Origin: a virus
Taxonomy: Duplodnaviria > Caudoviricetes
DNA length: 64,000 nt
Virus record (IMG/VR): IMGVR_UViG_3300029305_005547
Location: 214,850-278,849 of that record
Strand: one strand, 5' to 3'
Positions within the stretch are counted from its first letter, which is position 1. Each line of letters starts with the position of its first letter. The notes beneath the pieces were generated by a model. It had not been told where the DNA came from. It was given only the letters and a program-made list of their open reading frames with translations, and made no database searches. Both the position numbers and the translations under genes were made by a program. This document shows, one piece after another, positions 38,771 through 39,954 of the stretch.

Positions 38771-38904
38771 CAAAAAATGAGATGAATGGTATTATCATTC
38801 ATCTCACATTTAAAGGATCTTAACTGTAGATATGGAAACAAATGGAGAGTGTTGAAACCAACACTCTCCACTATTATTTTCCATTAACCGGAATTTTCAT
38901 TTTA

Positions 38905-39324
38905 TTTCCCATATAAACAGCCATCAGGAAACGAAAGCTGTATGATAGCCAAACCTAAATCGATGGATTTTATAAACAATTAACATCATCACATATAAAA
39001 CTTCACATTTAAGTGGATTTATCCTTCTCGAATTAAATCCTACTAACATGTCACAGCTAAGGTCTTAACATTTGACATTTAACATGTAATCAAATAGCCA
39101 TCACGTATACCTTCAGGGTATGAGCCCGAATTTTGTCTGATGCTATTAGTAGTAATTGAAACCCTCTGTTTCAAAACCACCACTCTTATCATGTTATACA
39201 TGTTAGGATTAACTGTCCTAATGTATATAAACACCAAGCATGTGTTTTATATGGTGATAATAAATACTTTCACGTTTATTATCATTACGTGTCATATATT
39301 ATCGTTATTCGTCTATATAGGAAA
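38905..39324 (-). ncRNA. Structured ncRNA, copy 1 (7-nt repeat array plus tRNA anticodon-arm mimics)
   Basis: Closing stem UUUCCUAUAUAGAC/GUUUAUAUGGGAAA; core homologous to 56900-57273 with compensatory changes; no credible ORF. Confidence 0.75.
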
Positions 39325-39456
39325 GAGTAGGAGATGAAGTTTTGAGGCTCCACCTCCCTGTTTCATTTAATTCTTTTCCTCTATCAGTTGTTCGTTAAGA
39401 AGGAGATATTCGTTTGTTCATTTTCAAACGACAATACCATCTCAGGTATTACGAAA

Positions 39457-39954
39457 TTATCTCCAGCTACCGATAGTAGAGAAATCAGAACCGTTCTTCT
39501 TTTTCTTCTTCTTGTTTCTTACGGATTCTGCCTTTTCAGCAATACTTGCTACCTTACGATAGTTCTTAGGCAAACACTCCATCATGGAACCAAGTTCAGA
39601 TGCATAACGAACTGCATCATTACCTGCATTAACGGCAACGCTCAAATACTTAAGCTGGTTTACGACTTCCTTAGCACCCTTGATCTTATTGATAACTTCT
39701 TCCTTATCATAAGGACGACCCTTAAAGGATGCCTGACACATTCTACATGTACAAGTCTGCTTTCCATCATTATAGATGGTAGGCTTTACCTTACCGCTCT
39801 TATTCAATGTGTGATGAACACACGCACCACGCAGCACTCTTGTCTGCTTCTTATTCTTACCACGGATCTTACCATTCTTTGTGGTATTCTGTTTGATTAC
39901 GGAAATAACACTTCCTTCAGTAATCTTGTAATCAGGTCTCTTATTCTTAGCCAT
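39457..39954 (-). CDS. Basic putative Zn-finger protein (165 aa)
   Basis: CVH...CTCRMC; AAAGGAG RBS; early motif at 39990-39999; poly-Lys tail. Confidence 0.7.
   Translation of the reverse strand: MAKNKRPDYKITEGSVISVIKQNTTKNGKIRGKNKKQTRVLRGACVHHTLNKSGKVKPTIYNDGKQTCTCRMCQASFKGRPYDKEEVINKIKGAKEVVNQLKYLSVAVNAGNDAVRYASELGSMMECLPKNYRKVASIAEKAESVRNKKKKKKNGSDFSTIGSWR

What the first reader, a model, noticed from the sequence alone, without database searches (positions are those of the whole stretch)
38905..39324. Second, orphan copy of the ncRNA with compensatory base changes against the first
Seen: the two copies share UGUUAGUAGGAUUUA...UAAAUCCACUUAAAUGUGAA and UUGUUUAUAAAAUCCA but differ in paired positions. 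The stem is CCAUC/GAUGG here versus CCAAG/CUUGG in copy 2. Long-range pairs are AACGA/UCGUU and UAUGA/UCAUA here versus AAACC/GGUUU and UCAUAU/AUAUGA there. The closing stems differ in sequence but both pair. This points to selection on RNA structure rather than a simple duplication. This copy has no adjacent coiled-coil gene (it follows a basic Zn-finger ORF). Inference: it may load onto the same protein in trans and widen the decoy repertoire.
Basis: partly seen in the sequence, partly recalled or inferred. Interest (0 to 1): 0.85.

Follow-up and report, generated by a model that had tools for sequence, protein, structure and literature searches.

The report
Second copy of new phage RNA
This stretch is a real second copy of a previously undescribed, roughly 420-base, tightly folded non-coding RNA, and its relatives sit next to one conserved gene in many large phages, including T5-like laboratory phages, so its unknown function can now be tested at the bench.

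Summary
Window 38906-39323 (minus strand) is one of exactly two copies in this 279-kb phage of a structured RNA; the other lies at about 56900-57271.

- a 14-bp closing helix P1;
- a pseudoknotted core (Pa, Pb, P3);
- a 5' H-type pseudoknot;
- a central hairpin between two arrays of 7-nt units with invariant U-N-A.

Frequent G.U pairs place the fold on the minus-strand RNA. Rfam 15 has no match.

"Orphan" is misleading. This copy always follows a basic zinc-finger gene in 7 lineages, and it is the only copy in two complete relatives.

Distant members follow homologues of the 242-aa gene (phrog_1491; PVP-SE1's record calls its copy similar to T5.085) in metagenomic phages and, judged by architecture, in Vibrio, T5-like and rV5-like phages. 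In two of the three cultured phages examined the module sits among tRNA genes.

My best reading is a stable RNA that offers a periodic platform for a multimeric protein. This is inferred, not shown.

The tRNA-decoy idea is not supported family-wide, because the anticodon-like arms and the UGU motif are lineage-specific.

Other notes of this scan describe the same two loci in this genome.

The parts
39310..39323 (-). P1 5' strand (UUCCUAUAUAGACG), the closing helix. I first took this for a promoter box.
   Evidence: 14 contiguous pairs with 38906-38919; 98.9% paired in 20 sequences, with covariation at 10 positions.
39302..39306 (-). Pa 5' strand (AACGA)
39292..39296 (-). Pb 5' strand (UAUGA)
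39255..39291 (-). 5' H-type pseudoknot PK1. S1 is CACG/CGUG. The S1 loop pairs downstream to form S2 (10 bp). The linker is A-rich.
   Evidence: Searches find the same topology with different sequences in 9 of 12 homologues automatically. The other 3, including copy A, were read by eye; for copy A the automatic search returned only the 10-bp S2 helix.
39091..39254 (-). Variable domain of four hairpins, including loops CAGUUAA and CUCAUAC (the latter on a GGG/CCU stem, 39112-39130).
   Evidence: Length and content differ between lineages.
39043..39090 (-). Heptad array 1: about 7 units of AUGUNAN with U and A invariant every 7 nt.
   Evidence: Invariant columns in alignment; TRF period 7; autocorrelation peaks at lags 7 and 14.
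39015..39040 (-). Central hairpin Pc (GGAUUUA...UAAAUCC)
   Evidence: every homologue has a hairpin here, and most have unrelated sequence.
38972..39014 (-). Heptad array 2: about 5 units, more degenerate.
38961..38966 (-). P3 5' strand, preceded by the conserved AAAAUCC.
38941..38945 (-). Pb 3' strand (UCAUA), inside the P3 loop.
38930..38934 (-). Pa 3' strand (UCGUU), inside the P3 loop. With P3 this forms a pseudoknot.
38921..38926 (-). P3 3' strand
38906..38919 (-). P1 3' strand (UGUUUAUAUGGGAA)
38777..38870 (-). Two terminator-like hairpins downstream of the RNA. The first (38843-38870) was called on the plus strand; the second (38777-38807) is on the minus strand and has a T-run.
39329..39358 (-). 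Terminator-like hairpin immediately upstream of P1. It covaries in the A-type loci.
39457..39954 (-). Basic 165-aa zinc-finger gene (pI 10.1). It lies upstream of every A-type copy.
56899..57271 (-). Copy B of the RNA, directly after the 242-aa gene at 57285-58013.

Best explanation
Window 38906-39323 (minus strand) encodes a paralogue of a new family of structured non-coding RNAs, 320-450 nt long.

Shown:
- A 14-bp helix P1 joins the two ends.
- Just inside P1, the 5' strand pairs through Pa and Pb with the loop of the 3' hairpin P3, giving a pseudoknotted core. P3 and P1 are one base apart on the 3' strand.
- An H-type pseudoknot and a variable set of hairpins follow.
- The long arm carries two arrays of 7-nt units with invariant U-N-A, split by a hairpin.
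- The family has an A-type locus after a basic zinc-finger gene and a B-type locus after a 242-aa gene of the phrog_1491 family (PVP-SE1's record calls its copy similar to T5.085).
- The gene-then-RNA arrangement of the B-type locus is ancient.

Inferred:
- The RNA is a stable molecule acting in trans. Its rigid core displays the arrays as a periodic, multivalent platform for an oligomeric protein, one subunit per 7 nt, much as TRAP and HutP read spaced triplets.
- The partner is either the phrog_1491-family protein or the basic zinc-finger protein.
- In two of the three cultured phages examined the module sits among tRNA genes, a region reported to hold anti-defence genes in T5-like phages. 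A role in host takeover or counter-defence is therefore plausible, but it is unproven.

Copy A would then serve the same partner as copy B.
For: Structure:
- P1.
- P3.
- Pa and Pb.
- PK1.
- Pc.
- Minimum free energy z-score -4.8.

Strand: 45 of 280 P1 cells are G.U, and P1 carries a G.U wobble that is invariant in all 20 sequences plus a U.G kept in the 12 close homologues.

Periodicity.

Copy number: 2 in this genome and 1 in each of two complete relatives.

Link to the 242-aa gene:
- B-type loci.
- Distant metagenomic members, each after a homologue of that gene: with tblastn and hhalign.
- Cultured phages Achelous, S132 and PVP-SE1 have the same gene followed by an unannotated gap of 360-445 nt. 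The gap holds P1, P3, Pa/Pb and 7-nt U.A periodicity.
- G001 and G002 keep the gene but carry only the A-type RNA.
- G004 lacks both the gene and the RNA.

Motif change: the heptad core differs between clades (AUGUNA versus AGAUNA/GUUGA) while the period and U-N-A are kept, as expected if the RNA co-evolves with a binder.

Anti-defence genes in the tRNA-rich region of T5-like phages are reported in bioRxiv 10.1101/2023.03.15.532788.
Against:
- No promoter was found. P1 starts 4 nt after a terminator-like hairpin in copy A and about 13 nt after the stop codon in copy B, so the RNA may be only part of a 3' UTR.
- The 242-aa protein is acidic (pI 4.8-5.5). Its AlphaFold model gave no informative fold match, to an RNA-binding protein or otherwise.
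- Array 2 is nearly gone in the distant clade.
- Membership of the cultured-phage elements rests on architecture and a weak covariance-model score of 14 bits.
- No protein-RNA contact has been tested.
Confidence: 0.5

Rival explanations
1. tRNA-mimic decoy. The anticodon-arm-like hairpins and the UGUNA heptads imitate anticodon loops. They would soak up anticodon nucleases or tRNA-modifying enzymes such as TGT or colicin-E5-type enzymes.
For: - Seven-nt loops CUUUUAA, CAGUUAA, CUGUAAA and CU(C/U/A)AUAC on a GGG/CCU stem recur in the gut clade.
- A GGUUCGAAUCC T-arm is present in the B-type copies.
- AUGUNAN units resemble the loops of GUN-anticodon tRNAs.
- In Achelous and PVP-SE1 the module lies among tRNA genes.
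- This 279-kb genome has no tRNA genes of its own.
Against: - Distant members lack the T-arm and these loops, and their heptads read AAAGAUN rather than UGU.
- Even within the gut clade G34-like positions are often A or U.
- There is no acceptor stem or D-arm, and ARAGORN finds nothing.
- No TGT or DpdA gene is present in three complete genomes.
Confidence: 0.15
2. Cis-acting 3' UTR element. The fold stabilises, terminates or regulates the mRNA of the gene just upstream and has no role in trans.
For: - The RNA lies directly downstream of, and on the same strand as, the upstream gene in every locus.
- No separate promoter is recognisable.
- A terminator follows.
Against: - Two unrelated genes carry paralogous copies.
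- G001 and G002 keep the 242-aa gene without the RNA.
- More than 400 nt with two pseudoknots and periodic arrays is far more than a stabiliser needs.
- The S132 element is at least 90% identical in 440 of 441 T5-like phage records.
Confidence: 0.15
3. RNA-only assembly. Like ROOL and GOLLD, the RNA forms homo-oligomeric particles, and the arrays mediate RNA-RNA contacts.
For: It is a large ornate phage RNA that often lies beside tRNA genes, as reported for GOLLD and ROOL (PMC12286853, listed). U-N-A units are self-complementary in principle.
Against: Rfam shows no similarity to GOLLD, ROOL or OLE. RNAalifold predicts no pairing within the arrays. The link to a conserved protein gene suggests an RNP.
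Confidence: 0.07
4. DNA-level element such as an origin, iterons or a packaging site, or an RNA decoy of the single-stranded promoter motif of a jumbo-phage RNA polymerase (AR9 type, 3'-UUGU-5').
For: Short periodic repeats are typical of iterons. 5'-UGUU-3' equals the AR9 template-strand motif (PMC9209446). Another note of this scan reports an RpoB-like, intron-split gene in the window; I did not check it.
Against: G.U pairs and pseudoknots are maintained on one strand only. The 7-bp period is out of phase with the DNA helix. UGUU is not kept in other clades, and T5-like phages use the host polymerase (background knowledge). TAACA-type words are not enriched upstream of the genes.
Confidence: 0.04

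Closest known systems
GOLLD and ROOL large ornate RNAs (Rfam; cryo-EM in PMC12286853)
   Same: They are several-hundred-nt, highly structured, pseudoknotted RNAs of unknown function. They are encoded by phages or prophages, often next to tRNA genes.
   Different: Rfam detects no sequence or structure match. The new family is smaller (320-450 nt), has 7-nt periodic single-stranded arrays, and is coupled to one protein-gene family.
RNA targets of the ring proteins HutP and TRAP
   Same: Both show short triplets repeated at a fixed spacing. HutP reads three NAG triplets with 4-nt spacers, which is a 7-nt period, in two half-sites. TRAP reads 11 triplets. (Background knowledge.)
   Different: The triplet here is U-N-A, not (U/G)AG. 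The RNA is not a 5' leader attenuator. No HutP or TRAP gene is present in three genomes. Binding has not been shown.
CsrB/RsmZ-type protein-sponge RNAs and 6S RNA
   Same: They are stable non-coding RNAs that present many copies of a short motif, or a mimic, to titrate a protein.
   Different: The motif, the fold and the genomic context all differ. The sponge function here is only inferred.
Bacterial Y RNA / YrlA (PMC4201824)
   Same: It is a modular non-coding RNA with a tRNA-like module, encoded next to its protein partner, and is also found in phages.
   Different: There is no Rfam match and no Ro60/Rsr gene. The tRNA-like T-arm occurs only in the gut B-type copies.

Membership tests
New heptad-array RNA family (defined here) | A 14-bp closing helix P1 that ends at invariant A.C and A.G mismatches. 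| tested here: met
   Copy A pairs at 14 of 14 positions. The family of 20 sequences is 98.9% paired.
New heptad-array RNA family (defined here) | A P3 hairpin preceded by AAAUCC, whose loop pairs with the 5' strand through Pa and Pb (pseudoknot). | tested here: met
New heptad-array RNA family (defined here) | Arrays of 7-nt units with invariant U-N-A upstream of P3. | tested here: met
New heptad-array RNA family (defined here) | Location directly downstream of a phrog_1491-family gene (the 242-aa gene). | tested here: not met
   Copy A follows the zinc-finger gene instead. This feature defines the B-type locus, not the fold.
Any Rfam 15 family (including GOLLD, ROOL, OLE, tmRNA, 6S, YrlA, RNase P) | A covariance-model score at or above the gathering threshold. 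| tested here: not met
   There are no hits at gathering score in the window. Nothing convincing appears at E<=10 over either copy. Only tRNAs are found in the related loci.
tRNA / tRNA-like gene | A cloverleaf with acceptor stem, D-arm, anticodon arm and T-arm. | tested here: not met
   ARAGORN finds none in the window or the genome. Copy A has only anticodon-arm-like hairpins and no T-arm.
HutP/TRAP-type regulatory RNA | (U/G)AG triplets at fixed spacing in a 5' leader, with the cognate ring protein encoded. | tested here: not met
   The spacing is kept but the triplet is U-N-A. The element lies in a 3' position. PF09021 and PF02081 are absent.
Type III toxin-antitoxin RNA (ToxI-like) | Tandem repeats of about 36 nt upstream of an endoribonuclease toxin gene. 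| tested here: not met
   The repeats here are 7 nt long, lie inside a folded RNA and are downstream of the gene.

The most novel reading that the evidence does not exclude
The phrog_1491-family protein (T5.085-like) and this heptad-array RNA form a previously unrecognised, widespread ribonucleoprotein module of large lytic phages (T5-like, rV5-like, Vibrio Demerecviridae, gut and freshwater jumbo phages). The module sits in tRNA and anti-defence regions and acts in host takeover or counter-defence. The gut jumbo phage has duplicated the RNA into two specialised paralogues.
Probability: 0.3. Interest if true: 0.9.

Novelty: categorically new. Interest (0 to 1): 0.8.

Why it matters
Large, pseudoknotted RNAs with strong covariation are rare, and each new class has tended to reveal new biology.

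This one has no Rfam counterpart and an unusual feature: single-stranded arrays with a strict 7-nt period.

It appears to be coupled to one protein family across very distant phages. That includes 441 records of T5-like coliphages and Salmonella phages, where the roughly 370-nt stretch is left unannotated in nearly all rows listed.

This makes an RNA found in an uncultured gut phage testable in standard laboratory phage-host pairs.

One caveat applies. The family could be among the unnamed candidates of a 2023 survey of viral structured RNAs (PMC10690425), whose tables I could not read.

Tried and rejected
- I first read the conserved box UUCCUAUAUAGACG as a promoter. Only the two copies carry it, and it proved to be the 5' strand of P1.
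- The UGU heptads as mimics of Q-family anticodon loops (TGT or colicin E5 targets) are rejected as a family-wide explanation. Distant clades use AGAU/GUUG units, and no TGT gene is present.
- An AR9-type polymerase decoy: there is no enrichment of the motif upstream of genes.
- A RegA-type repressor sponge: PF01818 is absent, but the control genomes also gave nothing, so this is uninformative.
- HutP and TRAP genes are absent.
- AlphaFold models of the 242-aa protein (pLDDT 87) and the 165-aa protein (pLDDT 69) gave no Foldseek PDB match below E 0.2. The ESM Atlas gave only hypothetical phage proteins.
- blastn of both copies against cultured phages found nothing. An exact 20-mer scan of IMG/VR found nothing. 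Single-protein scans of IMG/VR found nothing.
- A free duplex-energy comparison with wide windows was not discriminating in this AU-rich sequence. Position-restricted windows were.
- Small ORFs of 41 and 52 aa inside copy A have no counterpart on that strand in copy B.
- The supplementary tables of PMC10690425 are not held. 'T5.085' appears in no searchable paper.

Full report
**Where the window lies.** The window is bases 214850-278849 of a complete 278,849-bp IMG/VR phage record. The region is about 32% G+C. It encodes a PhuZ-like tubulin and type II topoisomerase subunits. The whole genome has no tRNA genes.

**The observation.**
- A pairwise alignment shows a core of about 190 nt at 76% identity. 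The more 5' parts align poorly.
- BLAST and a covariance model find only these two copies in the genome.
- Rfam 15 gives nothing at gathering score and nothing convincing at E<=10.
- ARAGORN finds no tRNA.

**Homologues.** Homologues of the two upstream proteins led to contigs that carry the element.
- B-type copies follow the 242-aa gene in L005/6, L007, L014, L015 and L016/17. They are absent at that place in L008-L013 and L018/19.
- A-type copies follow the 165-aa zinc-finger gene in L028, L029/30, L020/23, L021, L031 and L032-34. These share 57-89% protein identity with the window's gene.
- Together with the window's two copies this gives 12 distinct sequences.

**Anatomy, in window coordinates for copy A.**
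- P1. What I first took for a promoter box is the 5' strand of a closing helix, 39310-39323 paired with 38906-38919.
  - It has 14 contiguous pairs, with full pairing in 12 of 12 sequences at 13 positions and covariation at 10.
  - It carries an invariant G.U wobble in all 20 sequences; the U.G at the anchor position is kept in the 12 close homologues and becomes C-G in the distant clade.
  - Pairing stops abruptly at two invariant mismatches.
  - With the distant members added, 98.9% of 280 cells pair, against 37-52% when the partner is slid.
  - 45 cells are G.U, which would be mismatches on the other strand.
  - A-type by B-type chimeras pair at only 9.5-10 of 14 positions.
- Pa and Pb. They lie at constant positions after P1 and pair with the loop of P3, with a different sequence in every lineage. 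Cognate partners beat swapped ones.
- P3. It covaries at 4 of 6 pairs. On 20 sequences 99.2% of cells are paired and 0 of 500 shuffles reach the covariation score. P3, Pa and Pb together form a pseudoknot. P3 and P1 are one base apart on the 3' strand.
- PK1. An H-type pseudoknot with an A-rich linker follows Pb in all 12 sequences (three, including copy A, were read by eye).
- Pc. The central hairpin is present in all sequences, mostly with unrelated sequence.
- Overall fold. Copy A folds at -112.7 kcal/mol, with a z-score of -4.8.

**The arrays.** Between the variable hairpins and P3 lie two arrays of 7-nt units, separated by Pc.
- The alignment shows U and A invariant every 7 columns.
- The commonest unit is AUGUNAN.
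- TRF reports period 7 in both copies.
- U.A autocorrelation peaks at lags 7 and 14.
- RNAalifold predicts no pairing within the arrays.

**Ends and strand.**
- The element has the orientation of its flanking genes.
- A terminator-like hairpin lies 4 nt upstream of P1. Two terminator-like hairpins lie 36-130 nt downstream of P1; one of them was called on the plus strand.
- No promoter was recognised.
- In copy B, P1 starts about 13 nt after the stop codon.
- Whether the RNA is an independent transcript or is processed from a 3' UTR remains open.

**Copy A is not an orphan.** Two complete relatives, G001 (275 kb) and G002 (249 kb), have a single copy, at the A-type locus. Both still encode the 242-aa protein, elsewhere in the genome. 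G004 lacks both the RNA and that protein.

**A much wider family.**
- A degenerate pattern for the P3-P1 junction, filtered with the covariance model, found members in IMG/VR (L050) and in nine metagenome contigs, at 24-34 bits.
- Seven of these ten loci showed tblastn similarity to the 242-aa family in the upstream gene (P0011 versus L098, E 2e-9; versus L057, 1e-5). For L050 the link rests on hhalign, 34% identity over the C-terminal 50 residues.
- Seven of the eight distant members scored keep P1 at all 14 positions, L067 at 13, with new covariation.
- Their heptads read AAAGAUN or GUUGAAA. The period and U-N-A are kept, but UGU is not.
- The protein family (phrog_1491, often labelled 'tail fiber protein') is found in 110 cultured-phage records. 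PVP-SE1's record calls its copy similar to T5.085.
- In Vibrio phage Achelous, Salmonella phage S132 (T5-like) and PVP-SE1 (rV5-like) the gene is followed by an unannotated gap of 360-445 nt.
  - The gap holds AAA(U/C)CC-P3, a closing helix (20 bp in S132), a Pa/Pb-type duplex ending 2-3 nt before the P3 3' strand, and 7-nt U.A periodicity.
  - The covariance-model score there is weak (14 bits), so membership rests on architecture.
- In Achelous and PVP-SE1 the module lies among tRNA genes.
- The S132 element is at least 90% identical in 440 of 441 T5-like records and is annotated 'none' in nearly all rows listed.
- Rfam finds only tRNAs in these loci.

**Mechanism.**
- Shown: a conserved, strand-specific, pseudoknotted RNA fold with periodic arrays; two old paralogous loci; and deep linkage to one gene family.
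- Inferred: a stable RNA that offers a multivalent 7-nt platform to an oligomeric protein.
- The change of heptad core between clades, with the period unchanged, fits co-evolution with a binder. This rests on few independent clades.
- The 242-aa protein is acidic (pI 4.8-5.5) and the zinc-finger protein is basic (pI 10.1). Neither model matched a known fold.
- Anti-defence genes have been reported in the tRNA-rich region of T5-like phages (bioRxiv 10.1101/2023.03.15.532788). This makes a counter-defence role plausible by association only.

**The decoy idea.** The gut clade has hairpins with loops such as CUUUUAA, CAGUUAA and CU(C/U/A)AUAC, and the B-type copies have a T-arm. These features are lineage-specific and absent from distant members. 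No TGT, HutP or TRAP gene is present, and the RegA search was uninformative. I therefore rank tRNA mimicry as a possible add-on in the gut clade, not the family's core function.

**Prior knowledge.** Literature searches found no description of this RNA. A 2023 survey predicted 10,006 unnamed viral structured RNAs (PMC10690425), and its tables are not held, so overlap cannot be excluded. Other first-stage notes of this scan describe the same two loci in this genome.

**Verdict.** The finding is one member of a new and apparently widespread phage RNA family whose function is still unknown.

Noticed in passing
window 39402-39446 (-): There is a second conserved structure between the zinc-finger gene and the RNA. 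CCUGAGAUGG and UCUCC flank a covarying hairpin with a conserved loop, G(A/G)AAAUGAAC. It is present in all seven A-type loci and absent from the B-type loci.
   Followed up: partly
window 38888-38900 (-) and about 56795-56808 (-); also L005, L007, L012, L015, L021, L028, L029: A motif (U)AUGAAAAU(A/U)CC recurs shortly downstream of the RNA and elsewhere in these intergenic regions. In copy B it forms a GGUAU-GAAA-AUACC hairpin. It may be a phage promoter or a processing signal.
   Followed up: no
G000 genome positions about 30-110 and about 278775-278849: The two ends of the record share the same sequence, although IMG/VR classes the record as linear. This suggests a circularly permuted or terminally redundant genome.
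   Followed up: no
whole genome G000: ARAGORN finds no tRNA gene in this 279-kb phage. In Achelous and PVP-SE1 the related RNA-gene module lies inside tRNA clusters.
   Followed up: partly
L067, L103, L094, L057 (between the gene and the RNA): One to three copies of a GC-rich hairpin (GUCGGGUCC...GGACCCUU) are inserted between the 242-aa-family gene and the RNA in freshwater-type members. They look like a small repeated, REP-like element or stacked terminators.
   Followed up: no
L032:4131-5463 and L033:4255-5489: In some relatives the GyrB-like topoisomerase gene downstream of the RNA is split. In L032 an HNH_3 gene follows a short N-terminal HATPase_c ORF; in L033 the HATPase_c ORF and the DNA_gyraseB/Toprim ORF are called separately with a gap between them. 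This suggests an intron or a homing-endonuclease insertion.
   Followed up: no
window 56539-56899 (-): Downstream of copy B, a hairpin GGGCAGGA...UCCUGCCC followed by GAAAAAGA is conserved even in relatives that lack the RNA (L008-L013, with other stem sequences). It is therefore a separate element.
   Followed up: no
phage records, for example NC_048010.1 66918-67288: A non-coding stretch of about 370 nt after the T5.085-like gene is 90-100% identical in 440 of 441 T5-like Salmonella and E. coli phage records and is almost never annotated.
   Followed up: partly
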